DNA of 40,646 nucleotides from a virus (Duplodnaviria > Heunggongvirae > Uroviricota > Caudoviricetes): positions 1-40,646 of the IMG/VR virus record IMGVR_UViG_2675903413_000001; one strand, written 5' to 3'. The notes beneath the pieces are model-generated. The model worked only from the letters and a program-made list of their open reading frames with translations. It was not told where the DNA came from and did no database searches. A program made the translations under genes and the position numbers. Positions 4,114 to 40,527 of the stretch are shown one piece after another (positions within the stretch are counted from its first letter, which is position 1; each line of letters begins with the position of its first letter).

Positions 4114-5082
4114 TTAGTAGGTTATTTTTGTTGCGAATACTTCGCCTTTTACGATGGCTGTTATGATATTTTTAGCAACATCTTCTGATGCACCAACCTT
4201 GATAAGGTCAGCAAGTATTTTGTTATTTACTTCTTTCCGGTGAGCTTTATCCTTTGCTCTACGCTCTTCTTCTTCCTTGATTCTTTTTTCTTCTGCTATT
4301 CTGGCTTGCTCTTTTGCTTCAGCCTCGCGCCGGATTCGTTCAGCCTCCTCCTGTGCTTTTCGGCGTTCTGCTTCAATTGCCGCCTGCTTTTCTCTTTCAG
4401 CTCGTTCTGCTGCCTCTTTTGCTTCGCGCTGTGCTCGTTGCTCGGCTTCAATGCGTTCACGCTCTGCACGTTCCGCTGCTGCCTTAGCTTCTGCTTCTCG
4501 CCTTGCTGCTGCTTCAATTTCGGCTTTTGCCTTTGCTTCGGCTTCTGCTCTGGCTTTCTCTTCAGCTTCTCTTTTTAAGCGTTCTTCATGCTCTCGCTTT
4601 TCCTGCTCCACTTTGAGTCTTGCCTCTTCTCTTTTGCGGTCAAATTCGCGATCCATCAAAATCGCTATTTCATGGTCAGACTCAATTTGCTTTGCGAGAG
4701 CTTCAGCTGCTGCCTTAGCTTCTTCTTCGGCTTTAATCCGTGCCTGTTCCTCCTCATAATCAGTAAGAGGCTGGCGCGCCTTGGCTTTCAGTTCATCAAG
4801 GCGATCGCGCACTGTCTTGCGGTTGGCATCAATTAGCTTTGGAATTTCCTTCAGTTCAGCAACAAGGTCTTTGCCAAGACCATCGAGATATGTTTTCGTC
4901 TGCGCAACTTTATACGCCAGAGAAGCGATCTCCTTTCTGCCCTTTGCCGTTGTGATATCAGGCACAAAGGACATAACTTCACGTTCAACCTTTTGGAGAA
5001 TTTCTTCAATCTGGTCGGCAGACTGAAATACAGTCATTGCATTTGCTTTTTCAATAACAACTAAATCTGTTACTTCACTCAT
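4114..5082 (-). CDS. Coiled-coil protein with long E/A/K/R-rich central repeat region (322 aa), function unknown
   Basis: ORF track 4114..5178; ATG 5082 (MSEVTD) chosen because of strong SD GGAGGA 5 nt upstream; ~150 aa of AEAKA/ERAERE-type repeats. Confidence 0.65.
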   Translation of the reverse strand: MSEVTDLVVIEKANAMTVFQSADQIEEILQKVEREVMSFVPDITTAKGRKEIASLAYKVAQTKTYLDGLGKDLVAELKEIPKLIDANRKTVRDRLDELKAKARQPLTDYEEEQARIKAEEEAKAAAEALAKQIESDHEIAILMDREFDRKREEARLKVEQEKREHEERLKREAEEKARAEAEAKAKAEIEAAARREAEAKAAAERAERERIEAEQRAQREAKEAAERAEREKQAAIEAERRKAQEEAERIRREAEAKEQARIAEEKRIKEEEERRAKDKAHRKEVNNKILADLIKVGASEDVAKNIITAIVKGEVFATKITY

Positions 5083-5093
5083 ATATCCTCCAT

Positions 5094-5123
5094 CAAAAAA
5101 AATTGCCCTCACACTGGAGGGCA
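5094..5123 (-). terminator. Rho-independent terminator on minus strand (tL1-like), immediately upstream of the coiled-coil gene
   Basis: Stem TGCCCTC/GAGGGCA (5104..5123) followed on minus strand by ATTTTTTT. Confidence 0.55.
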
Positions 5124-5336
5124 AAGAAGATTTCCAATAATCAGAACAAGTCGGCTCCTGTTTAGTTACGAGCGACATTGCTCCGTGTATTCACTCGTTG
5201 GAATGAATACACAGTGCAGTGTTTATTCGTATGCCTGTCTTTTAACCACATCAGGCTCGGTGGTTCTCGTGTACCCCTACAGCGAGAAATCGGATAAACT
5301 CTATTCACCCCTACAGAGAGCAAAAGAGAAACGCCG

Positions 5337-5921
5337 ATGAACAACTCATGGTGGCAGGAACTAATGCATTTTTTCCTGCAAGGAATGACACTTAAACAGT
5401 TGATTCATATGCTAATCATCCTGATCATATTGATTATTGTTATGCCGGTAAGCGTAAAAGAATGGATAAACCTGCATAATCCAGAAATCCTTCCTCATTA
5501 CTGGATGTATTACATCCTGTTGTTTTGCGTTAGCTATGTGCTTAACGGCGTTGTTAATTCCGCTTATCACGCTGTGACTGAAAGAATTGAGGTATTCGCT
5601 GCTCAGAAGCGCAAATCTAAAGAAGAGAAATACGTGAAAGATTTGTTTGATTCGTTAACTCTTGGAGAAAGAGCGTATTTGGCACTCGCTGTAGTCGCTA
5701 ATAACCAGCTACAAACGGAAAAGGGAAGCCCTGAAGCAATCTCATTGCTCGAAAAAGGGCTTCTTATTCGGATACCTTCTGCTACTGGATATCCTGAAAT
5801 CGACCGTTTTGTTATCCCGGAACGCTATAGAAATGAGTGCTACATTAGGTTTGCTGGGAAGAAAGACAGTCTTATGGATGAACTTATCGCTCAGGATAAG
5901 CATGGCAAAACAAGTAATTAG
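5337..5921 (+). CDS. sieB: SieB-like superinfection-exclusion membrane protein (194 aa), tentative
   Basis: Hydrophobic N-terminal segments; size and position next to N as remembered for lambda/P22 sieB; on the strand opposite to the pL operon. Confidence 0.45.
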   Translation: MNNSWWQELMHFFLQGMTLKQLIHMLIILIILIIVMPVSVKEWINLHNPEILPHYWMYYILLFCVSYVLNGVVNSAYHAVTERIEVFAAQKRKSKEEKYVKDLFDSLTLGERAYLALAVVANNQLQTEKGSPEAISLLEKGLLIRIPSATGYPEIDRFVIPERYRNECYIRFAGKKDSLMDELIAQDKHGKTSN

Positions 5922-5933
5922 CAAATGATTTTA

Positions 5934-6206
5934 TCATCTCGCCGTCAGTTGTTTTGATTTCCTGTAGCCTGCCGCGTAAAGAGCTACGTTTGGAAGACAA
6001 GTTGAGCCTTCATATTTTCTGGTCAGCGTTGTCAGTGTTATTACTTCTGCTCTCATTGCTGGTTTGCGCTTACATTGCAAGACCACTCGTGAGGGGGTTG
6101 GTCTGTGTAGCTTGTCGGAGCTAATCGCCTCCTGACTTTGCAGGTTTGCGCGACGAGCTCTACGACGAGAAGCTGAGGTGCCTTTAAATTCTGTTTTTCT
6201 GGACAT
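5934..6206 (-). CDS. N: N-type transcription antitermination protein (P22 gene 24-like)
   Basis: Arg-rich motif SASRRRARRANL near N-terminus; C-terminus LPNVALYAAGYRKSKQLTAR matches remembered P22 gp24; SD GGGAGG upstream of ATG 6206. Confidence 0.8.
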   Translation of the reverse strand: MSRKTEFKGTSASRRRARRANLQSQEAISSDKLHRPTPSRVVLQCKRKPAMRAEVITLTTLTRKYEGSTCLPNVALYAAGYRKSKQLTAR

Positions 6207-6302
6207 AGATTCCTCCCGAATAAACTTTGGTGATGCAATCTCGAAGCTCTTCCTGAGACGGTTGCTTCGGCATTGCATCCCACAGCTCATGTGGTTGGGT
6301 GA

Positions 6303-6713: not shown

Positions 6714-7736
6714 TCACTTTGAAATCCTTGATATCATGGCAAGTTCGATAATTCCGCTTCGGATTTTGTAGTCTCCGAAAAGTTTCGTCGTATCAGATTC
6801 TTTCATTGCATCGTACAGCAAATCAGTTTCTTCTTTATCAAAGAATTCCGTCAGCACATAAGCTGGGAAGGAGTAGTCCTCTCCAACCTTTCTGCATGTA
6901 ACTGTCAGCTTTTCTGGAGTTTTCTTAATCCCCTCAATCTCAACCTCTACGGTAAGTTCGCTGTTAGTCATTTTTTCACGCGGGTTCTGGATCATCTCTT
7001 TGATATCTTTTTGGTCTAACTCAATTTTAGCAAGACCATTGAATTCGACTTTATCGGCATCAGAAACCCCTTTTAACACACCAACAACAGCATTAGCTGC
7101 ATGGTTTTGAATTCCTTCTGAAATATCCCTTGCTGCTGGAGTAGCACTTGATGCGCTAAGAGCTTCAACAATTCCATCCTTGAGAATTCTCATTCTCTCA
7201 TTTTCAGAATTGTTATCTTCTTTAGCTTCGTCAAGCTCAAGCTGTTTCATGTCTTTTTCATGCTTGTTTTTTAGGTGCGACTTTACGAGCCACGCCCCAG
7301 TAAGGAGTAGAGATATGAGAACTAAGCAGATTGCCTTTTCTGTTCCAGTCATACCTTGGGTTGATCTCTCAAATGCTATACCAAAAGAATCTATGACATC
7401 CTTAATGGCAACGATAAGGTCAGTACATCCTGGCTCGACCTTAAATATGATTTCAAGCTCTTCACGATCATTCTTAGTGAGGTGCTTAAGGTTGTCAGTT
7501 CCGTGCTTAACAAGCGTATATGCTTTATAGAGTTCAGTCTGAAACTCGCACATCCCTTGAGCTAGCGATGCCGGAATGGTTCCATTATAGCGCTCAGGAT
7601 CCCCGTAAATCTTGAAATTTACGACATTTACGAAATTTATGTTTAAGTTTTCTACCGTAAACTCTTCACCCTTCTTAAGGCGATGTAGCAAAGATTCAAC
7701 GTCGCTTAGGTTTGAAACCTCAATTTGATTTTCCAT
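6714..7736 (-). CDS. Unassigned 340-aa protein in the immunity-region moron slot, with one central hydrophobic segment
   Basis: ORF track; lies between repressor stop and OL/pL; AICLVLISLLLTGAWLV hydrophobic stretch; own terminator; no family recognised. Confidence 0.7.
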   Translation of the reverse strand: MENQIEVSNLSDVESLLHRLKKGEEFTVENLNINFVNVVNFKIYGDPERYNGTIPASLAQGMCEFQTELYKAYTLVKHGTDNLKHLTKNDREELEIIFKVEPGCTDLIVAIKDVIDSFGIAFERSTQGMTGTEKAICLVLISLLLTGAWLVKSHLKNKHEKDMKQLELDEAKEDNNSENERMRILKDGIVEALSASSATPAARDISEGIQNHAANAVVGVLKGVSDADKVEFNGLAKIELDQKDIKEMIQNPREKMTNSELTVEVEIEGIKKTPEKLTVTCRKVGEDYSFPAYVLTEFFDKEETDLLYDAMKESDTTKLFGDYKIRSGIIELAMISRISK

Positions 7737-7830: not shown

Positions 7831-8478
7831 TTACCCAAACGTCTCTTCAGGCCACTGAGCCTTAACTACCTTGCCTATGATTCGGCAGCTATGGTCGCAA
7901 TCCAGGGTTCTGTATGCCGGGTTTAAAGGCACCAGGTAACTAACCCCTGCATCCTTCTCATACTTCTTGAACGTTGCCTCTGAATCACCATTTGCAGAAG
8001 CTACGCAGAAATCCCCAGACTCTACCGGCTCGGCAGGGTCTACGAGTATTAGCATACCCTCAGGAAAGCTCGGCCTTACGCCCTGTGGCGCAGTCATAGA
8101 ATGGCCTTTCACCTCAAGCCAGAAAGCTTTTTCGCTGGCTTTTGTGGTCGTTGGGACCCATGCCTTTGCATCGCTGGCTGTGTAGCTTCCCACCTCCGAA
8201 AACGGCCCGGCCTGCACTGAAGAAAATAACGGGTACTCATATTGGCGAAATACGGCGTCTGAATCCTCGCCAAACATTATTTTTGCCGGAGATACGCCGA
8301 GTGCCGCCCCAAGAACCAGCGCGTCATCCGCGCTAACCTTTCTTGTTCCTAACTCGTAGTTACCCAGGCGTGAAGGCGCAGCCCAGCCGCAAAGCTTGGC
8401 CAATTGAGCCTGGCTAAGTCCTTTAGCTTCTCTAAGGGACTTGATCCTTTCCCCGATAATTTCATGCATCGTTTTCAT
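7831..8478 (-). CDS. cI: CI/C2-type prophage repressor (HTH plus LexA-like S24 peptidase domain)
   Basis: 215 aa; N-terminal HTH ([11 protein letters not shown]), C-terminal domain with GDSM and catalytic Lys region typical of autocleaving repressors; divergent from cro. Confidence 0.85.
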
Positions 8479-29579: not shown

Positions 29580-31046
29580 ATGGCTACTTGGCAAGGAACA
29601 AATGGCGGATTGTTGGCTGGTATCGGTGGTGTCAACTCAAACGCTCCGAGCGTAAATGACATCGGCAACACGCTTCAGCTTACCAGGCAGAACAATGATA
29701 TTGAGCGTTCAGGCGCTAACAATGTTGGGCTGACAGCTTTGCAAGGTCTTTCTGGTATTGCGGGTGTTTTTCAGCAGGAAAAGCAGGCTCAGCGGCAGAA
29801 AGAATTTCAGCAGGCATACGCTAATGCTTATGCGTCTGGTGATCGCGGTGCTTTGCGTCAGTTGGCTACTCAATATCCAGACCAGATTGAATCTGTTCGC
29901 AAAGGCATGGGATTCATTGATGAAGACCAGCGCAATTCTATCGGCACCTTAGCGGCTGGCGCACGCCTTGCTGCCTCGTCTCCAGAAGCAATGCAATCAT
30001 GGCTGCAAAACAACGCCAAGGAACTGACTCGCGTCGGTGTTGACCCTAATAACGTTGCTCAGATGTATCAGCAGAATCCTTCAGGATTTGGTGAGTTTGT
30101 TGATCACCTTGGGATGGCTGCTCTCGGTCCGATTGACTACTTCAATGTTCAGGACAAGATGGCTGGTCGTGAAATTGACCGAGGCAGACTGGCAGAGACA
30201 ATCCGCAGCAATCAGGCTGGTGAAGCACTTCAGGCGAGAGGGCAGGATATTAGCCGAGCAAATGCGTTAACGTCAGCATATGCACCAACATCCGCAATGC
30301 AGAATTACAATCAGTACGCGCAAATGTTAAAGGTAGATCCAGATGGTGCAGCGGCATTTGCGGCAGCGGCGGGAATTAATCCCAATGCTAAGAAATTACT
30401 TAAGGTTGAAACCAATCCTGATGGCTCGGTAACTAAGTATTACACCGATGGCAGCGAGGAAGCCGGAAAACTAAACCAACCTATATCTGGTGATGGCATT
30501 AAACCAATTAGCTTGCCACAAGCGCAAAGCATCATAGATAAGGCTAATGAGGGTTCCAAGAAGGCGGCGGGATTTGCTTTGCGATTAAAAGATTCAATGG
30601 ACTCAATGAATCAGCTTAGTAAAAGCATTGACCCTAAGCGAGTTGCATTAATAAATAGCTCTCTTGGTGATGGGACTATTGCAAATTTAAGCCTATCACC
30701 AGCGGAGCAGCAATATATGGTAAATGCGAGAGACGCCTTGTATGCAATTTTGCGCCCAGAAACAGGTGCAGCAATTACTCTGCCAGAGATGCAGGAGTAT
30801 TCCAAAATGTACCTGCCTCAGCCCGGTGATTCCAAGGCTGCTACTGAAACAAAAATGCGAAAAATGCAGGGCCAATATAACTCATTACGTGGTCAGTCTG
30901 GTCGCGTTTATGATGCTTTGGTGGTTTCAAGTGCTGCAAATAGTCAACAACAGAGCAATAGCCAACAACCGACAAATACCCAACAGCAGCAGAGTCAATC
31001 CGGATCATATACCTCAAAATCAGGCATTCAATTTACGGTGGAATGA
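29580..31046 (+). CDS. Ejection protein (P22 gp20 homologue)
   Basis: 488 aa; synteny. Confidence 0.7.
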
Positions 31047-32884
31047 TGAAAGTAACTGCAAACGGTAAGACATTTACCTTCCCTGATGGTACGAGCACGG
31101 AAGATATTGGCACCGCCATTGATGAGTATTTTGCTGGTCAGGCTGTTCAGCAACAAACAGTTAATCAGGCCAATAATGAACCAGCACGTGAAGAACCATC
31201 ATTGATGCAACAAGCTGGTGATTGGCTCACTGGTGGTCAAAGTGCAGGGCAAATTGCAGAACAGGCTGGTCGTGGTCTGGTAAACATACCATTTGACGTA
31301 TTGCAGGGTGGCGCAAGTCTGATTAATGCAATCAGTCAGGGGCTTGGTGGACCCAAGGTTTTGGATGATGTTTATCGTCCAGTAGACAGACCGACAGACC
31401 CCTACGCGCAAGCCGGTGAAACAATTGGTGGGTATTTAGTTCCAGGAGTTGGAACGGCAGGAAGCATGGCTATTGGATCACTGGCAGAGGCCGCAAATCA
31501 GAAAGGCGATTTCGCACAAAATGCAGCTAAAAATGCCGGAGTTAACCTTGCCGCTCAGGGGGTTCTTTCCGCAGCAGCAAAGGGAATAGGGCGTGGAATA
31601 ACGGCTATAAAAGGTGATATTGCGCCAGAAGTGGCGAAGAAAATTGCCACATCAGAATCGATGGGCGTGACACCAATGACATCTGATGTTATCCCGCCGA
31701 AAAATGCTTTCACTCGCGGCCTTACTCAGGATGCCGAGGGGGCTTTGCTCGGGACAGGCTCAAAGAGAGCGGAGCAATATGCAACGCGTAGTAAGCTGGT
31801 AAGCAATTATTTTGACCGTTTTGGTGAGTACAACCCTGATGATGTGGTGAAATCTCTGACCACCACGTTAAGGGGGCGGAAGGATGCCGCTGGCGCTGTT
31901 ATCAATGACGTCACCAATAAAATGGGTAATGCCGCAGTTGATACCACAAATACCATGAATGCTCTGAATACAGCGATCGCAAGACAGGAACGGCTTGGGA
32001 CGTCTGCCAATCAAAGCCTGCTTACATCCTTGCGTAACCTACGTGAAGAATTAGCAAACCCTGCAACTGATTTGGATGTTACGTTTGATCTCTTGCGCCA
32101 GCACAGAACAGCATTTAGATCTAATGTTCAGGGAGATGCTATGGTCTTCCCCAACCAGGCAAAAGCAGCTACCAATATGGTAGAGAATGCAATGTCAAAA
32201 GACCTTCGTAACGCAGTTGCTAAAAACCTAGGTGCATCAGACGCAGCAAAATACCTTAAAGCAAATTCCGATTATGCAAACGTTTATAATAAGGTGCTTA
32301 ATAAAAACATTGCTAACAAGCTCAACAAGGCAAGCAGTGAAGCCAGTCCTGAACTTATAAATACCGTTGTATTAAGTAGAAAACCATCTGACGTGAAACG
32401 AATCTGGAGCGCATTGGATGATAAAGGGAAAGATGCTATGCGTGCAGCTTACGTCAGCAAAATAGCGGAAAAGGCAGGTGACTCTCCAGCCAAGTTCATC
32501 ACTGAAGTTAATAAGCTGAAATCTCAGTCAGGCGGTGAAATTTACAACACTATTTTTTCTGGAAAGCACATGAAAGAACTTGATGCTCTTCATGAAGTTC
32601 TACAGCAAACAGCAAGGTCAGACACCGCAAATGTAGTAACTCAGACGGGGCAATCGCAAGCCAACAGGATAAGGACGATTGGCGCAACTGCGACTCTTGG
32701 CGTATCAATGGGGCTTGAGGCTGGTTTCGGTGCAATGATGCGCTTGTATGAATCCAAAGCAGCAAGGAATGCTCTCTTACGCTTGGCAAACACCAAAGCA
32801 GGAACACCAGCCTATGAAAGAGCGCTAAATCAGGCGGCTACTGCCGTGCGCCCGCTCTTAGTTAACGAAGCTACCCGGCAGTAG
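31043..32884 (+). CDS. Ejection protein (P22 gp16 homologue)
   Basis: 613 aa; synteny. Confidence 0.7.
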
Positions 32885-32906
32885 CACTGTAAGCCAGGGA
32901 CGGCAT

Positions 32907-33401
32907 TTATTTTATAGTTTTTATGAATTCTTTATTAAATCCCTTCGCTTCTCCGGGGTATCTTCCAAAGACAATTTTTATAAAAACAGAAAAAATAAAG
33001 ATAGCAACGCTTAACAACAATTGCAGTATCATTGGAACCCAAAGAACTACAGGATCTATATTCATGAAACCAAATATTCTTCCGGCGATCATGGCGAAGT
33101 ACCACACTGTTATCAGTAAACTTAGTGGCATATGAATTACTGATATTACCAATCCAAGAGCATCAGTAATTCTGTTTTCAAATTTTTCAGGGGAAAACTT
33201 TTCTTTAAGGTAATTCAGTGCGCAGGCCTCATTCTCTGGATTTTCAGCATTTTTCCCTATAGCAATAGAAATCTCAGATATCCTTGATTCAATTCTTTTA
33301 CGTTTAATAAAACTAGAAAAAAAGAACCACGCAATCTGCAACCCTATCCCCAGAAATAGAGTTGCGGCAACTAGCACAGCGTAACTCATAGAATCAGACA
33401 C
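32907..33401 (-). CDS. Multi-pass membrane protein in the sieA-equivalent slot (about 165 aa), function unknown
   Basis: Several hydrophobic segments; GTG 33401 with SD AAGGAGG 5 nt upstream (alternative ATG 33389); AT-rich; ORF track start 33617 rejected. Confidence 0.6.
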
Positions 33402-33431
33402 ACCAACCTCCTTAGTTTTACGCAGGATACC

Positions 33432-33797
33432 ATGAAAAAAGTTAACATTGGAAACGTACCAAAGATGCTCGTTCCGCTCTTTGAGAGCGGTACAATTGTG
33501 TTTTGTAGAGACTTTCCAGAATGGCAACGCCTGCATCAAAAACTTGGTGTGGACGTGCAGGACTCGGATGCCAACGGAGCGTCTCATACAATGAGCAGCG
33601 AGAATGGTGTTTTGCATGTGATAGGCGTGTTCAATGGCAAACTATCTACTATTGCCCATGAGTGTGCTCACATGGCATTCGATATCTGCTCAAGGGTAGG
33701 TGTTGATGTTGAACCAGGAAGAGCCAACGAGACTTACTGCTACTTAATGAGCAGGCTTGTTGAGTTCTGCGAGCGACATATCAAAAAGCCGGAGTGA
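33432..33797 (+). CDS. Small protein (121 aa) with HExxH motif (HECAHMAFD), putative zinc metallopeptidase-like
   Basis: ORF track; divergent from the membrane gene. Confidence 0.55.
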
Positions 33798-33810
33798 CCC
33801 GGCTTGAGTA

Positions 33811-33990
33811 TTACTTTTTGCTGTCTGGAGTTCGCTTATCCAATACCCAGCCATGACCTGGCTTTGTTGTTGGCGGAAGCCTTTCGTTGTCCTTGACGGT
33901 GGCAAAATTGTCTTTCTTACCGCCGCGTGGGCCAACCTCTTGGTATATTCCGCCGTTTTTTCCTGTGTTTTCACCTGGTTTTTTCGCCAT
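33811..33990 (-). CDS. Lys/Gly-rich small protein (59 aa)
   Basis: MAKKPGENTGKNGGIYQEVGPRGGKKDNFATVKDNERLPP...; SD GAGG upstream of ATG 33990; preferred over overlapping ORF 33744..33974. Confidence 0.45.
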   Translation of the reverse strand: MAKKPGENTGKNGGIYQEVGPRGGKKDNFATVKDNERLPPTTKPGHGWVLDKRTPDSKK

Positions 33991-34073
33991 GATATACCTC
34001 AACATACACCCGTTATTGGGCGATTAAATATTGATCTCATTTTATAAGTAGTCAATATGGCCCAGGTAAATGC

Positions 34074-34106
34074 AAAAATTAACCCACCTTCAGGTGGGTT
34101 TTTTGT
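34074..34106 (+). terminator. Rho-independent terminator, possibly bidirectional
   Basis: Stem AACCCACC/GGTGGGTT followed by TTTTTTGT; A-tract upstream. Confidence 0.65.
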
Positions 34107-34155
34107 ACAAATCCTTCAGCCAGTACATAACTACTGACAGATAACCAACGCAACG

Positions 34156-34180
34156 ACCCAGCTTCGGCTGGGTTTTTTTA
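34156..34180 (+). terminator. Second rho-independent terminator upstream of tailspike
   Basis: Stem ACCCAGC/GCTGGGT with TTCG loop followed by TTTTTTT. Confidence 0.65.
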
Positions 34181-34237
34181 TGCCCAAAATTCACCGTAGC
34201 CATGCTGCGGCGATTCCTTGTATCTGGAGCAAATTAA

Positions 34238-36397
34238 ATGACAGATATTACAGCTAATGTGATTGTATCGATGCCTTCGCAACTCTTCACTATGGCTCGT
34301 TCTTTTAAAGCCGTAGCCAATGGCAAAATTTATATCGGAAAAATTGACACTGACCCGGTAAATACTGAAAACCAGATTCAGGTTTATGTAGAGAATGAAG
34401 ACGGATCTCACGTTCCTGTTTCGCAACCAATCATCATTAACGCTGCTGGTTACCCGGTATATAACGGACAGATTGCCAAGTTCGTAACTGTGCAAGGCCA
34501 TTCGATGGCTGTTTATGATGCATACGGTGTGCAGCAGTTCTATTTTCCTAATGTGCTGAAGTATGACCCGGATCAGTTTTCTGCAGAATGGCTTGCCAAG
34601 ATGTCTGCGCCTGATTCTTATGCATTATTTGGTACATTCTCATCAATAGCAGATCTACGAGCATTTACTGCATACTCATCAGTTAAGGAAAATGGAAGAG
34701 TCTATGTTGATTCTTATCACCTTGGAACTGGTTATGGCGGAGGATATTTCCGCTGGAATTCAACCAGCACTGATACTGATGACGGAGGCTATACCATTAA
34801 CCCAACTGGCAATACTGGAACAGGACGCTGGAAGCGAGAGATATCCTCTGCGTATGTCGCAAGGACGGTGAGTCCGTTGGAGTTTGGGGCAAAAATTAAC
34901 GATAGTACCTTCGACTGCGCGCCAGCTATCAATGCTGCGATTTCATATCTAAACCCTTACCTTGATGCCTCATATGACTCACATCAAGGCGGGGATGTTG
35001 TTTTTCCAACTGCTCAATACTTCATTAATGACACTATTTATCTCTCTCCAAATGTAAGGGTAATTGGCACGGGAGGAACGTCTGGCTTTAGATATTCACG
35101 CGCAGGATGCTCAATTATTATTGCTATGACGTCCATGGATGTAAATAAATTGCTTCTAGATACCGCTCCATGGCTATCAGACGGCACTGCAAGATATACA
35201 GTGACAAACAGTGTGGAAAATGGGCTGTATTTGAGTGCTGGATATTATGGACCATATATAGAGAATATTGTTTTATTGGGCCGTCCAGATACGCAGGCGG
35301 GAATTAGAATCTGGAGGACTCCGGATGCCAAACTGATTGGAGTTGCAGTGTATGACTGTAAGGTTAGCTTTTGGATAAGTGGTTCTTGGGGGACTGCGGT
35401 AGAGAATTGCTTTGCACAAGGCGCTAAATATGCAACATTTTTAACACCCCACACTACGGCACTAAACTTGGTAGGAGGATATTATACTGGTAATTTATCG
35501 CAAACATGGGATAAAGGCACGGCACAATGGTTCCACAGATCCGGAGATGTATCAAATAGACCAAATATTGCCTATGTCACCACTTTTCTCTATGCCCACG
35601 ACTGTGTCGACATAAATATGCACGGAGTAACATGGGAGGGGTACAATCGAGATTTCGCCCTCTTTTATAGTGGTAACGTTAATGTTTTCGGAGGTTATAG
35701 TGAGAGTGTAAATGTAGCCGCCAGCGAGACTGGTCACCGAGTTTGGTGTCAGTGCGTGGGGTCAACTATTAATACGTTCGGTGTTTTCTGCAACCATGAT
35801 ATAAAAGATTTTGTTGTTCAATCTGGAAACACACTGTCAAGTGGGGCGGTAGTCAAGACTGATATCTCACAGATCAATGTTCGCGACATGAAGATTGGAT
35901 CACCATTTAAATTGATTACCAAAGATCTTGGCTTCGGGCGTTATGGAATCAAAATAAATTGCGAGCATCCAATTACAGAAAATATAGCTGATACTTTAGC
36001 GCCGTTGAGAGGTTATACAGTCCAATTTAAAGGGCTTCTTGATGTGTACACCATGCGTTCACCTTCAATCGCTCAAGGAGCAAACACATTCGATATACAG
36101 GTAAGCAATTGTGTGGCAGGGGGAGAATACTCATGCAGGCTTCTAATGAAAAATGTGGCTGTAACATTACAGCAAGATTTAAGATTTAATGTTTTGGTGG
36201 GTAATGTTTGCAGCGTTACTGGATATCAAGGCAGAAGCTTAGTTGGAACATCTACCATACCAGCACCATCTGCAAGCTTTAATTCAACAACGGGGGTGTT
36301 GACTCTCACCTTTACCGGAAACTCTGCAAATTACTCACTTAATAGGTTAAAAGTTGTTCCACTGGAGGAGCAGCCGCCATTTACCTACTCGACGTAA
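34238..36397 (+). CDS. Tailspike: conserved P22-family N-terminal head-binding domain fused to a distinct beta-helix receptor-binding domain
   Basis: 719 aa; first ~115 aa ([42 protein letters not shown]...KYDPDQF) match remembered P22/HK620 tailspike N-terminus, remainder diverges. Confidence 0.85.
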
Positions 36398-36430: not shown

Positions 36431-37885
36431 TCAGCACGGGGTGTTGCCTCCTCCTTTTAACCATATTAAAAAGCCATTGTTTTCTTGGTTGAAATATATC
36501 GAATAAGAATTGGTGGATTTTATTGGCTTGGTTATAGATGCACATACATTGGATATTATCTTTTTCTGTTCTTCTCTAGCAAAATTGAATTTTACATTTG
36601 GGATGTCGATTGACTGGGCAGCCATGCTAGACGTCCAATCATATGTTGGAACCAACATTGTAGAGATTAATGGATATGCTTTTACAGTATTTATCGATAA
36701 GGGAGCTATTGGCGCCCTGCCAGAATATACAATGTACGAATTTATATTGTAATCTGAGCTATTTCTGATGTCATTAATTGACAGGTATAAAATTGACTTG
36801 TCATAAATTCTCTGCTCTTTGATAGCAAAGGAAAAGCCATATGAAATTACATATAAAGGTATTGCGATGACAGCGATTGCAAAATATTTTTTATTATTAC
36901 TAATTTCGCTTATGGATATCATGGTGAAAATTAAAGCTGTTAATCCTACAGCCCCCATCATCATTCTCGCTGCAATGGCTGATTCACCGAAAATCGCCAG
37001 CATTCCTATTGGTGATATGGCAACCACGGAAATACAGATTATGATTATCGCGATATTTAAAAACGAAACTCTTGGTTTGGTTGTTGTTACCAGTAACGCT
37101 AAAGTCAATAAATATATTGCCACATAATAGATAGATAGACTTGATTCTAATAAAGTATAAAATCTAACCATTCTTTTTACAAAGTAATCAATAAGTGACG
37201 CATCTAACGATATTGCCTGGTCTCTTGTTCCAGTCATCGGGAAAGCAACCTTTATTATAAAATAATAAAGAATCATGCCAATGGCGAGAGATGCCATTGC
37301 TTTTAAAGCTAAAATAATAACTTCCTTTGCGCAGTCATTAGATTTTTTTAATTTCACAATTAAGTTTACTGCCACAAGAGCTATGTATGAATTTATTGAT
37401 GTCTGATATAAAGCCGCGCTAAAAGCAATGATAATAAAAGATGCAATAAAGTAGATTTTGTCTTCTTTAAGTGCGTAGACAGAAGCAACAACCGCACCAC
37501 AAAGTGAAAGCGTCATTGGCAGGTTATCGTACTGATAGAGCATGTTTTCTATATAAAATGGACTTAGCGCGAAGCCTGACGCGCAAATTAACGCTGCCAC
37601 GCTTGTCGAACCAAGTATGTGACGAGTATAGAAAATTGCTGTCATTGACATTACTGCTACTGATAATACCTGTCCAAATATTCCATAACCAGGTAGCTTG
37701 GATGAGGATATCATTAGCAGATGCATCAGCAAATCTGCTAAAGGCCTTCCGTTTTGAGACCACCCATCAAAACCATTCTGCGCCCTAAAAATATCATCAA
37801 CGTAAAGTTGATTGTTTATGATGAATGGCAAATAAAACAACCCTATTAATATAAATGGGATGTGATAAGTATTATTTTTTTTCAT
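36431..37885 (-). CDS. Serotype-specific O-antigen glucosyltransferase (Gtr type-specific), polytopic membrane protein
   Basis: 484 aa; highly hydrophobic; AT-rich; downstream of gtrA-gtrB. Confidence 0.75.
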
Positions 37886-38801
37886 TTTTAATGCCCTTCA
37901 AAATATACCTAGGACGCTGCTTAACTTCAGTGTAAATTCTGCCGATGTACTCACCAAGAACACCTATCCCTATTAACTGGATTCCGCCCAGAAACAAAAT
38001 AGATACTAACAGTGAAGGATAACCACGTACCGCATTACCGAAAGCCAACGTGTCGATAATCATCCAGGCGCCGTAAAGAAACGACAGGCCGGCGACCATC
38101 AGGCCAATATAAGTCCACATGCGAAGAGGGAAGGTTGAGAAGCTAGTAATGCCCTCAAGTGCCAAGTTCCAGAGCTTCCAGCCATTGAATTTTGAGTCTC
38201 CGGCGACACGCCCAGCGCGAGCATACTCGACAACATCAGTACGCCCTCCAACCCAACTCAGAACGCCCTTCATGAAGAGGTTGCGCTCCGGCAACAGTTT
38301 GATGTTCTCAACCACGGCACGGGACATCAGGCGGAAGTCACCGACGTTCTCCTCGATCTGCGGATTGCTTATTTTGTTATGCAGCTTATAAAACCACTCA
38401 GCGGATTTGCGCTTTAGTCTGCTGTCGGTGGAGCGATCAGAACGCTTAGCCAGGACCATGTCAGCGCCTGCCTGCCACTTCTCGATGAGATAAGGAATGA
38501 CTTCAATCGGGTCCTGCAGGTCAACATCAATCGGGATAACCGCATCACCTGTTGCGTGGTCAAGCCCGGCGAACAGAGCGGGCTCTTTACCGAAATTACG
38601 GGTGAAGGAAAGAGGAACGACAAGCGGATCGGCCACAGCCAGAGCATTAATAATTGACTCCGTAGCGTCTTTGCTGCCGTCATTTATGAAAACAATTTCC
38701 ACTTCATATGACTTCAATTCTTCGAATTCACGTACCGTTTTATAAAAAATTGGTATCGCTTCTTCTTCATTGAAGACAGGAACGACCAGAGATATCTTCA
38801 T
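37872..38801 (-). CDS. gtrB: Bactoprenol glucosyltransferase
   Basis: 309 aa; GT2 motifs ([21 protein letters not shown]) and C-terminal TM segments. Confidence 0.85.
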
Positions 38802-39160
38802 TTCGCATCCCTAAAGACAATGAACTTTGAATAGACGAAACCGCACACCAGGCTGATGGCGGAGAAGGTGACAAGAGTGACAATTGGAGGAAGTGAACAT
38901 CTATCAGCAGCCCATCCAACAGTAGCACTCAGTGTTCCCATGAACCCGACATATAACATGTAGCGCATCGTTGTAGTTGATGCTTTGAATGTGAATTTTG
39001 CATTCGCGAAGAAGCTAAAACTCACAGCCACAACAAAACCTGCGAAGTTTGCCAGAGCCTGATTGGTATGCGCGGCATAGATACATACACCAAAAACCAC
39101 CCAGTGTATAAGGGTGTTCAGCACGCCAATAGAGGTGTACTTTGCAAATAGTTTTAACAT
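38798..39160 (-). CDS. gtrA: Bactoprenol-linked glucose translocase (flippase)
   Basis: 120 aa four-TM protein; matches remembered GtrA sequence. Confidence 0.85.
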
Positions 39161-39312
39161 TTCTTCTATCAGCTAATAATCAAAGGCATGAAGTCTATCA
39201 TCCAAGTCTCAATCGATCGATACTTGCTGTGGTTGATGAGACAACACTGAGACACACAAAGCTTTGCACTGGATTGCAAGGCTTTGTGCTATCCGATGGT
39301 GTTTAAGTTTCC

Positions 39313-40470
39313 TCACTCCACCTTTTCATCAATCCAGTCCGCCCACCACTGCATCATTTCTCTGCGCTTATCGAGATACTGAGCATGGTTGTAAATCCCG
39401 CGCACAGATCCGCCGTTGGCATGTGCAAGTTGCACTTCAATAGCGTCAGCAGGCCATTCGTGCTCGTTCATAATCGTGCTGAATTCATGCCTGAATCCGT
39501 GACCGCTTTCCAGACCCTCATAGCCGATTTGTTTAATCACAAGTAATACCGCGTTCTCGCAGATTGGCTTCTTCTTATCGTTGCGCCCGGCAAAAACAAA
39601 CTCTGATACTGGTTTAGTGATGGAGCTTAGCGTAGTGAGAAGTTCAACCACCTGGTCTGACATAGGAACAACATGAATCTTGCGGCCCTTCATCACACTG
39701 GCGTCGATGGTGATAATCCTGTTTTCAAAATCGACGTTCTTCCATTGCATGGAACGAAGCTCTTTCGTTCTTAGGGCTGTGTAGCGTAAAACTTTGGTCG
39801 CAATGAGCGATACGATGCTTCCTGAAAATGTTGCCAGTGCTTTGTTGAATGCAGGGATCTGGTCTGCTGGAAGAAACGGGAAGTTCTTCTTGCGGTATCC
39901 TTTCATGGCGTCTGCAAGGTCAGGTGCCGGGTTATATTTAGCCCTTCCGGTGACAATAGCGTAACGGAAAACCTCGCCGCATCTTCTGCGTGCTTTGTTG
40001 GCTCGCTCCATTGCACCGCGATCTTCAAATCTGCGGATTACTTCCAACAGTTGCATCGGCTCAATATCCTGAATTTCAAGGCCGCCGATGATGGGTAAAA
40101 TGTCGTCATCAAACATTTTTGCAAGTTCAGTCGCATACCCTACTGACCATACTTGCTTCTTGTGCTCGTACCATTCCTTGTAAATCGCACTAAAGGAATT
40201 GTTGTTAGACGAAGCCTTTTTCGCTTTTACCGGATCGATGCCAACCGAGATGTCTTTCCTCGCGGTCCATGCTTTATCCCTTGCCTCCTGCAAAGTCATA
40301 AGCGGATATTTTCCGACGGTCAGGATTTTCTCCTTACCGTCAATCTTGTAGCGAAGCTGCCATACCTTTTTCCCTGACACAGGGACATAAAGGTACAGGC
40401 CATTACCATCGAGAAGGCGGTATGGTTTTTCTTTCGGCTTTGCTGCTTCAATCTGCTTAACGGTGAGCAT
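39313..40470 (-). CDS. int: Tyrosine integrase (P4 family)
   Basis: N-terminus MLTVKQIEAAKPKEKPYRL typical of P4-type integrases; catalytic region with R...HxxR...Y; alternative GTG start 40506. Confidence 0.85.
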   Translation of the reverse strand: MLTVKQIEAAKPKEKPYRLLDGNGLYLYVPVSGKKVWQLRYKIDGKEKILTVGKYPLMTLQEARDKAWTARKDISVGIDPVKAKKASSNNNSFSAIYKEWYEHKKQVWSVGYATELAKMFDDDILPIIGGLEIQDIEPMQLLEVIRRFEDRGAMERANKARRRCGEVFRYAIVTGRAKYNPAPDLADAMKGYRKKNFPFLPADQIPAFNKALATFSGSIVSLIATKVLRYTALRTKELRSMQWKNVDFENRIITIDASVMKGRKIHVVPMSDQVVELLTTLSSITKPVSEFVFAGRNDKKKPICENAVLLVIKQIGYEGLESGHGFRHEFSTIMNEHEWPADAIEVQLAHANGGSVRGIYNHAQYLDKRREMMQWWADWIDEKVE

Positions 40471-40527
40471 GGGTAAAAATCCGGTGGGTAAAATTATTTT
40501 ATCCACTTTTTACCCGTCATGGTGTGC
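40471..40527. repeat. Arm-type repeats near attR: GGGTAAAA twice (40471..40478, 40485..40492) and TTTTACCC once (40517..40524)
   Basis: Same 8-bp motif as 75..95 at the other prophage end. Confidence 0.5.

What the first reader, a model, noticed from the sequence alone, without database searches (positions are those of the whole stretch)
32907..33401. Membrane protein of unknown function in the sieA-equivalent slot
Directly downstream of the last ejection gene (gp16 homologue), convergent with it, lies an AT-rich gene encoding a ~165-aa protein with several hydrophobic segments and a strong SD (AAGGAGG). In P22 this position holds sieA and the immI genes, so a membrane protein here is a plausible superinfection-exclusion factor acting at DNA entry. 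I cannot confirm sequence similarity to SieA from memory.
Basis: partly seen in the sequence, partly recalled or inferred. Interest (0 to 1): 0.5.

Follow-up and report, generated by a model that had tools for sequence, protein, structure and literature searches.

The report
P22 sieA superinfection-exclusion gene orthologue
The gene is a close copy (92% protein identity) of sieA from phage P22, a characterised inner-membrane protein that stops related phages from injecting their DNA, so it is a known gene in its usual place.

Summary
Window 32907-33401 (- strand) is an intact 164-codon ORF with a GTG start, an AAGGAGG Shine-Dalgarno 5 nt upstream, 34.9% GC against 46.5% for the window, and three hydrophobic segments. 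It lies 22 nt from the stop of the gene 16 homologue and converges on it.

It is not of unknown function. It is sieA: 151/164 residues (92%) and 95.6% of nucleotides match phage P22 SieA. It matches PHROG 7745 'SieA-like' end to end (E 1.7e-108). It has the type-A length and the conserved C-terminal motif FxRYPxEAxxFNK. The 31 nt annotated as the sieA promoter in P22 are identical here.

P22 SieA was characterised by Leavitt et al. 2024 (mBio, PMC10883804). It is an inner-membrane protein, sufficient on its own to block DNA injection by P22-like phages. Escape mutations map to ejection proteins gp16 and gp20.

The same allele (100% nt) is annotated 'hypothetical protein' in an E. coli prophage. 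Alleles at 95% nt identity or more occur in 35 of 5,426 complete E. coli genomes and in about 30 IMG/VR contigs.

Novelty: already known. Interest: low. The side observations (a conserved HExxH ORF next to sieA, absent immI, variable sieA upstream region) are minor.

The parts
32907..33401 (-). sieA coding sequence (164 aa from GTG 33401; alternative ATG at 33389 gives 160 aa), type-A SieA
   Evidence: 92% aa and 95.6% nt identity to P22 sieA. PHROG 7745 E 1.7e-108, residues 1-164 on profile positions 1-164. dN/dS against P22 is 0.40.
33407..33413 (-). Shine-Dalgarno AAGGAGG, 5 nt before the GTG
   Evidence: Read directly from the sequence. Conserved in all 30 IMG/VR relatives examined.
33432..33462 (-). 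Putative PsieA promoter, equivalent to the stretch annotated in P22 record BK000583
   Evidence: 31/31 nt identical to the annotated P22 promoter. The 85 bp upstream that sufficed for function in PMC10883804 differ at 2 nt. The simple sigma-70 consensus scan did not pick it up.
33786..33805 (-). Terminator-like hairpin after the orf59a-like gene, equivalent to P22's annotated 'mnt terminator', upstream of PsieA
   Evidence: P22 locus L001 3500-3522 maps to window 33783-33805.
33309..33386 (-). Hydrophobic segment 1 (residues about 6-31), followed by KRKR
   Evidence: Kyte-Doolittle scan and charge count.
33078..33164 (-). Hydrophobic segment 2 (residues about 80-108)
   Evidence: Lies within helix 71-109 of the low-confidence AF2 model.
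32967..33053 (-). Hydrophobic segment 3 (residues about 117-145)
   Evidence: Matches helix 117-147 of the AF2 model.
32931..32969 (-). Conserved SieA motif FxRYPxEAxxFNK (residues 145-157: [13 protein letters not shown]), predicted cytoplasmic
   Evidence: Sequence. Motif as defined for SieA types A, B and C in PMC10883804.
31043..32884 (+). Context: gene 16 homologue (ejection protein). This is the resident phage's own copy of one of the two protein classes that SieA acts against in superinfecting phages.
   Evidence: 77% identical to P22 gp16; G532 is kept and P546 is Ala here. Its C-terminal 200 aa are 98-100% identical in all E. coli-clade sieA loci.
29580..31046 (+). Context: gene 20 homologue (ejection protein), the other SieA-escape locus in P22
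   Evidence: 37% identical to P22 gp20. RefSeq calls the LSC52 equivalent 'phage DNA ejection protein'.

Best explanation
This is the sieA gene of a P22-like (Lederbergvirus-type) temperate phage, in a type-A allele that circulates in E. coli prophages.

By orthology with P22 SieA, the 164-aa protein is expressed at a low level from the prophage, here probably from the P22-type PsieA promoter. It inserts into the inner membrane with three transmembrane helices. The predicted topology puts the N-terminus outside, the 32-79 loop inside, and the C-terminal tail inside. It prevents superinfecting P22-like short-tailed phages from moving their DNA across the inner membrane, by interfering with assembly or function of the conduit built from ejection proteins gp20 and gp16. 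Adsorption is unaffected, and other phage types are not excluded.

Shown here: identity, gene position, signals, hydrophobic architecture, motif. Inferred from the P22 experiments: localisation, expression and the exclusion phenotype.
For: **Sequence identity.**
- BLASTP against P22 SieA gives 151/164 identities, no gaps, E 7e-114.
- Megablast gives 95.6% identity over the whole gene to 41 Salmonella phage records, many annotated as sieA or superinfection exclusion protein.
- PHROG 7745 'superinfection exclusion SieA-like' matches at E 1.7e-108, full length.

**Synteny.** The order is gene 20, gene 16, sieA (convergent), then orf59a, then tailspike, as in P22. The same holds in all 30 IMG/VR loci and in the E. 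coli LSC52 prophage.

**Signals.** The annotated PsieA is 31/31 identical, and the SD is conserved.

**Architecture.** There are three hydrophobic segments. Lys+Arg counts are 0 (residues 1-5), 10 (32-83), 0 (109-118) and 5 (146-164), which agrees with the published TMHMM topology. The motif [13 protein letters not shown] sits at 145-157.

**Selection.** The ORF is intact with dN/dS 0.40 against P22. All 13 differences lie outside the fixed motif positions and most are conservative.

**Published function of the orthologue (PMC10883804).**
- A single chromosomal copy with 85 bp of upstream DNA lowers P22 plating by at least 10^7.
- It blocks K+ release.
- The protein fractionates with the inner membrane.
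- Escape mutations are gp16 G532W and P546S, plus gp20 T338I, T341I, A348T or G350D.
- It works in E. coli, against CUS-3.
Against: Nothing speaks against the identity. The function of this particular allele is untested. It differs from P22 SieA at 13 residues. No expression data exist for this genome. The simple promoter scan did not score PsieA; it is a putative and probably weak promoter even in P22. Pfam, NCBIfam and PADLOC have no SieA model, so support from curated families rests on PHROGs alone.
Confidence: 0.92

Rival explanations
1. It is a sieA orthologue whose exclusion spectrum differs from P22 SieA. For example, it might be tuned to the ejection proteins of E. coli P22-like phages, including HK620-type phages that largely escape P22 SieA.
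For: There are 13 substitutions against P22, and dN/dS is 0.40, higher than the neighbouring orf59a at 0.05. The sieA allele and the C-terminus of gp16 fall into the same two clades: E. coli clade SieA 97-100% with gp16 C-terminus 98-100%, P22 clade 92% with 80%.
Against: P22 SieA (type A) and HS1 SieA (type B) are only 24% identical yet gave indistinguishable spectra in PMC10883804, so 8% divergence is unlikely to matter. The co-variation with gene 16 is what simple physical linkage predicts, since the two genes are 22 nt apart.
Confidence: 0.05
2. It is a silent or decaying remnant: an intact-looking ORF that is not expressed or no longer excludes.
For: Function and expression were not tested. 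immI, which neighbours sieA in P22, has been lost here. In many relatives the P22-type promoter is replaced.
Against: The ORF is full length with no frameshift, and the SD, start and promoter are intact. The protein is identical in three independent contigs or genomes, and 97-99% identical copies are kept in about 25 others with no disrupted copy seen among the full-length loci. dN/dS is below 1.
Confidence: 0.03

Closest known systems
Phage P22 SieA (type A; DAA00996.1, BK000583 13336-13830)
   Same: Same length (164 aa), 92% identical, same start, SD and promoter sequence. Same position convergent with gene 16. Same three hydrophobic segments and C-terminal motif.
   Different: 13 mostly conservative substitutions: L26F, N30S, L37I, V44I, K53E, Y60C, V61A, R73K, I85V, I91M, E116D, I132V, N153K. 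The genome context lacks mnt-arc-ant. The relatives are E. coli prophages, not Salmonella phages.
E. coli prophage HS1 SieA (type B) and the Providencia/Morganella/Proteus type C SieA (PMC10883804)
   Same: Same family, gene position, predicted membrane core and FxRYPxEAxxFNK motif. HS1 SieA has the same exclusion spectrum as P22 SieA.
   Different: [quoted passage not shown] The window protein has the short type-A form. I did not compare it directly with type B or C sequences.
Injection-blocking membrane proteins of other phages: HK97 gp15, Tuc2009 Sie2009, TP-J34 Ltp
   Same: Prophage-encoded membrane proteins that block DNA entry after adsorption. For HK97 gp15 and TP-J34 Ltp, escape maps to the incoming phage's conduit or tape-measure proteins (as summarised in PMC10883804).
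   Different: They act on long-tailed phages. No sequence relationship was seen here: the PHROG scan returned only phrog_7745, and Pfam and PADLOC returned nothing significant. These are functional analogues, not family members.
SieB (Pfam PF14163)
   Same: Another P22 prophage-expressed exclusion gene.
   Different: An unrelated protein with an abortive-infection type mechanism. The window's real sieB is at 5337-5921 (+). The finding's protein does not match PF14163.

Membership tests
SieA (P22-like phage superinfection exclusion protein A), type A | Full-length sequence similarity to P22 SieA | tested here: met
   151/164 identical, no gaps, E 7e-114. PHROG 7745 E 1.7e-108, 1-164 on 1-164.
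SieA (P22-like phage superinfection exclusion protein A), type A | Gene lies between the gene 16 and gene 9 (tailspike) homologues of a P22-like genome | tested here: met
   Gene 16 homologue at 31043-32884 (+), sieA at 32907-33401 (-), tailspike with P22 head-binding domain at 34238-36397 (+). Same order in P22, E. coli LSC52 and the IMG/VR loci.
SieA (P22-like phage superinfection exclusion protein A), type A | Three predicted transmembrane segments with a cytoplasmic C-terminal tail | tested here: met
   Kyte-Doolittle peaks at about 6-31, 80-108 and 117-145, and the Lys/Arg distribution fits N-out/C-in. The low-confidence AF2 model (pLDDT 67.7) is all-helical with matching helices. No dedicated topology predictor was available.
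SieA (P22-like phage superinfection exclusion protein A), type A | Conserved motif FxRYPxEAxxFNK at P22 residues 145-157 | tested here: met
   [13 protein letters not shown] at 145-157. Motif as defined in PMC10883804.
SieA (P22-like phage superinfection exclusion protein A), type A | Type A form: no N-terminal extension or extra transmembrane segment as in types B and C | tested here: met
   164 aa. The longer 236-aa reading is excluded because homology in relatives ends at -31 or about -18 upstream.
SieA (P22-like phage superinfection exclusion protein A), type A | Expression in the lysogen from PsieA | tested here: inconclusive
   The promoter stretch annotated in P22 is 31/31 identical, but it did not score in the consensus scan. 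Expression cannot be measured here.
SieA (P22-like phage superinfection exclusion protein A), type A | Inner-membrane localisation | not testable with these tools
   Shown for P22 SieA-FLAG by fractionation (PMC10883804).
SieA (P22-like phage superinfection exclusion protein A), type A | Blocks DNA injection by P22-like phages, with escape through gp16 and gp20 changes | not testable with these tools
   Shown for P22 SieA (PMC10883804).
SieB (PF14163) | Match to the SieB profile | tested here: not met
   No PF14163 hit for the finding's protein at E up to 0.1. The ORF at 5337-5921 does match it (2.6e-24).
Known anti-phage defence systems in PADLOC-DB | Match to any PADLOC model | tested here: not met
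   No hit at E up to 0.01. PADLOC v2 appears to hold no SieA model.

The most novel reading that the evidence does not exclude
The E. coli-clade type-A SieA allele, which always travels with one particular gp16 C-terminus, may have a shifted exclusion spectrum relative to P22 SieA. For instance, it might efficiently exclude HK620-type ejection-protein sets. In many relatives it may also be driven by a promoter other than PsieA, for example read-through from mnt, because their upstream DNA is unrelated beyond -31 or -18.
Probability: 0.06. Interest if true: 0.35.

Novelty: already known. Interest (0 to 1): 0.08.

Why it matters
It matters little beyond annotation. The gene can be named sieA with confidence. 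RefSeq calls the identical protein (WP_039720083.1) 'hypothetical protein', as it does for 14 of the 15 E. coli hits listed.

[quoted passage not shown] A lysogen should therefore resist superinfection by other P22-like phages at the DNA-entry step. That is relevant when predicting phage host range or the outcome of phage therapy on strains carrying such prophages.

It also adds an example of a type-A sieA in an E. coli-type P22-like genome. Every isolated phage record carrying sieA in the collection searched is a Salmonella phage.

Tried and rejected
**The 236-aa ORF (ATG 33617).** Rejected. The extension overlaps orf121 on the other strand. Relatives lose homology at -31 or about -18 upstream of the GTG.

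**Curated families and solved structures.** Pfam, NCBIfam and PADLOC have no SieA model, giving only sub-threshold noise (Kri1, DUF6161). A PDB sequence search found no hit at E up to 1.

**Collection scans.**
- The genome-contig scan with the single protein found no confirmed relative. Its patterns were exact peptides of this allele, and each species has only one representative genome. I did not repeat it.
- tblastn against the phage collection found only the 41 P22-allele Salmonella records and no type B or C proteins.

**Structure prediction.**
- The single-sequence AlphaFold model of SieA had mean pLDDT 67.7. I used it only as weak support for helices and ran no fold search.
- The orf121 model had pLDDT 44.9 and is unusable.

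**Literature.** Hofer et al. 1995 (PMC176996) is not held. The promoter and start-codon history therefore rests on the P22 record's annotation and on Leavitt et al. 2024.

**Searches not run.** I deliberately skipped the large protein-database searches (search for homologous proteins, the search of protein representatives). Identity was already settled at 92% to the type protein.

**gp16-SieA co-evolution.** Considered, and set aside in favour of physical linkage.

Full report
**1. The observation**

The window holds an ORF on the - strand ending at 32907. The mechanical ORF runs back to an ATG at 33617 (236 aa). The stop is TAA at 32907-32909.

The gene 16 homologue (31043-32884, + strand, stop TAG) ends 22 nt away, so the two genes converge. 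The gene is AT-rich: GC 0.349 and GC3 0.309. The whole window is 0.465 and genes 20 and 16 are 0.47.

Kyte-Doolittle 19-residue means reach 1.6-2.6 in three stretches, at about residues 6-31, 80-108 and 117-145. An open frame of 164 codons at this composition has probability 2.7e-6, and 1 of 200,000 shuffles was open.

**2. What it is**

Megablast of 32700-34300 against the phage collection hit P22 and its close relatives at 95.9% identity over window 32784-34120. The features under the match are annotated 'sieA / superinfection exclusion protein'. In the curated P22 record BK000583, sieA is a 495-nt gene on the strand opposite to gene 16 and directly after it.

- The window protein and P22 SieA are both 164 aa and align without gaps at 151/164 identities (92%, E 7e-114).
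- PHROG 7745 'superinfection exclusion SieA-like' matches residues 1-164 on profile positions 1-164 at E 1.7e-108.
- Pfam, NCBIfam, PADLOC and the PDB hold nothing for it. That probably explains why RefSeq labels the identical E. coli protein 'hypothetical'.

The 31 nt annotated as the sieA promoter in P22 are identical here (window 33432-33462, - strand). The 85 bp upstream of the start differ at 2 nt, both in the leader. That 85-bp stretch was enough to drive a functional single-copy gene in Leavitt et al. 2024.

The 13 substitutions against P22 are mostly conservative, and dN/dS is 0.40 (13 non-synonymous, 9 synonymous). The motif FxRYPxEAxxFNK, which the paper gives as conserved across SieA types A, B and C at P22 residues 145-157, reads [13 protein letters not shown] here.

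**3. Start codon**

Related contigs that lack the neighbouring orf121 lose all similarity upstream of -31 or about -18 from the GTG. They keep the SD and the coding sequence. This rules out the 236-aa reading. The in-frame candidates are therefore GTG 33401 (164 aa, 5-nt spacer) and ATG 33389 (160 aa, 17-nt spacer). The paper itself calls the start uncertain.

**4. Distribution**

- In the phage collection, only 41 records carry the gene. All are Salmonella or 'Enterobacteria' phages of the P22 group, all with the P22 allele at about 91.5% aa identity to the window.
- In complete E. coli genomes, 35 of 5,426 hold it at 95% nt identity or more. One, strain LSC52, is 100% identical. There it sits in a P22-like prophage between the gene 16 homologue and the tailspike, annotated 'hypothetical protein'.
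- IMG/VR gave 32 loci: about 27 of the 'E. coli' allele (97-100% aa) and 4 of the P22 allele.
- In all of them sieA converges on gene 16. The last 200 residues of gp16 follow the same two clades, at 98-100% and 80%.
- The other side, between sieA and the tailspike, is highly mosaic. It occurs with or without orf121 and orf59a, and with several versions of mnt, arc and ant.

This agrees with Leavitt et al., who report type A or B SieA in E. coli and Salmonella prophages, always between genes 16 and 9.

**5. How it most likely works**

This section is inferred from the orthologue. For P22 SieA the paper shows the following.

- One chromosomal copy with its own promoter lowers P22 plating by at least 10^7 and lysogenisation by 10^5, and abolishes K+ release.
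- The FLAG-tagged protein is found only in the inner membrane.
- Exclusion is specific to P22-like phages, and it works in E. coli against CUS-3.
- Escape needs changes in the C-terminal parts of gp16 (G532W, P546S) and gp20 (T338I, T341I, A348T or G350D).
- Hybrids with HK620 ejection proteins partly escape, while those with Sf6, L or CUS-3 proteins do not.

The authors conclude that SieA interferes with assembly or function of the gp20/gp16 trans-envelope DNA conduit at the inner membrane.

The window protein keeps the length, hydrophobic architecture, motif and expression signals, so the same mechanism is the best-supported explanation.

One inference is my own. The charge distribution is Lys+Arg 0 in residues 1-5, 10 in 32-83, 0 in 109-118 and 5 in 146-164. 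With it, only about 15 residues would face the periplasm. Any contact with the conduit is therefore more likely within the membrane or at its cytoplasmic face.

**6. The resident phage's own ejection proteins**

gp16 is 77% identical to P22 gp16. G532 is kept, and the position of P546 is Ala. gp20 is only 37% identical. Whether these make the phage sensitive to its own SieA cannot be said. P22 itself is excluded by its own SieA.

**7. Context**

The window looks like a complete P22-like genome in phage order. gtrC, gtrB and gtrA (36431-39160, -) are followed directly by the integrase (39313-40506, -). It also has sieB (5337-5921, PF14163 at 2.6e-24) and a c2-type repressor (7831-8478). It therefore carries all four prophage protection systems listed for P22. 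immI (mnt, arc, ant) is absent: similarity to P22 ends near 34120, and the tailspike gene follows at 34238.

**8. Verdict**

The gene is a known, experimentally characterised gene (sieA, type A) in its canonical place. Novelty is 'already known' and interest is low. The remaining uncertainty is only whether this allele is expressed and active, which bench tests modelled on the 2024 paper would settle.

Noticed in passing
window 33432-33797 (+): A 121-aa ORF runs divergently from sieA. Its ATG is 30 nt from the sieA GTG, and it overlaps the annotated PsieA. It is 100% identical to an unannotated stretch of the curated P22 record (BK000583 13861-14223) and matches PHROG 1365 (unknown function). 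Homologues at 32-40% identity occur in epsilon34 gp70, L/ST64T, lambdoid mEp phages, and Pseudomonas, Klebsiella and Aeromonas phages. In a four-sequence alignment (window, epsilon34, mEp044, Pseudomonas phCDa), HECxH (76-80) and ANETYxY (98-104) are invariant, with Glu100 exactly 20 residues after the second His, as in thermolysin. PDB hits to thermolysin are weak (E 0.1-0.7). It may be a small zinc-metallopeptidase-like protein of unknown role. The AF2 single-sequence model was unusable.
   Followed up: partly
window 33402-33486 compared with loci L007-L034: The P22-type PsieA is not part of the conserved sieA module in most E. coli-clade relatives. Homology upstream of sieA stops at -31 (e.g. 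L007, L015, L020, L033) or about -18 (e.g. L011, L012, L018). In those loci an mnt-like gene lies upstream in the same orientation. sieA there must use a different promoter or read-through.
   Followed up: partly
window 33811-34237: The immI genes mnt, arc and ant that follow sieA in P22 are absent. Only the orf59a-like gene (33811-34005, -, weak YjzC-like, PHROG 3202) remains, followed by two terminator-like hairpins (34081-34100, 34155-34174) before the tailspike gene.
   Followed up: partly
window 31043-32884 (gp16) and 29580-31046 (gp20): The ejection genes are mosaic: gp16 is 77% identical to P22 gp16 but gp20 only 37%. At the SieA-escape positions, gp16 G532 is conserved and P546 is Ala. 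The gp20 escape region aligns poorly.
   Followed up: partly
window 5337-5921 (+), 7831-8478 (-), 36431-39160 (-): The genome also carries sieB (PF14163, PHROG 1301), a c2-type repressor and gtrABC. With sieA, these make up all four P22-type prophage protection systems.
   Followed up: yes
window 6714-7736 (-) and 4114-5178 (-): Two sizeable early-region ORFs (340 aa and 354 aa) have no Pfam or PADLOC match and only 'unknown function' PHROGs (6191; 1376 and 21365). The 340-aa one lies between the N-like antiterminator gene (5934-6290) and the repressor, a typical moron position.
   Followed up: partly
window 39161-39312 and both window ends: gtrA (38798-39160) and int (39313-40506) are adjacent, which is the phage (attP-intact) order and not the prophage order. 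At 40,646 bases the window looks like a whole, circularly permuted P22-like genome. No phage or E. coli record covers more than about 60% of its last 11.6 kb.
   Followed up: partly
window 34238-36397 (+) and 36431-37885 (-): The 719-aa tailspike has the P22 head-binding domain (PF09008, residues 1-113) but a different receptor-binding part, with a weak pectate-lyase-like hit. The gene after it is an AT-rich (GC 0.353) GtrC-like glucosyltransferase (PF14264). This suggests an O-antigen specificity different from P22.
   Followed up: no
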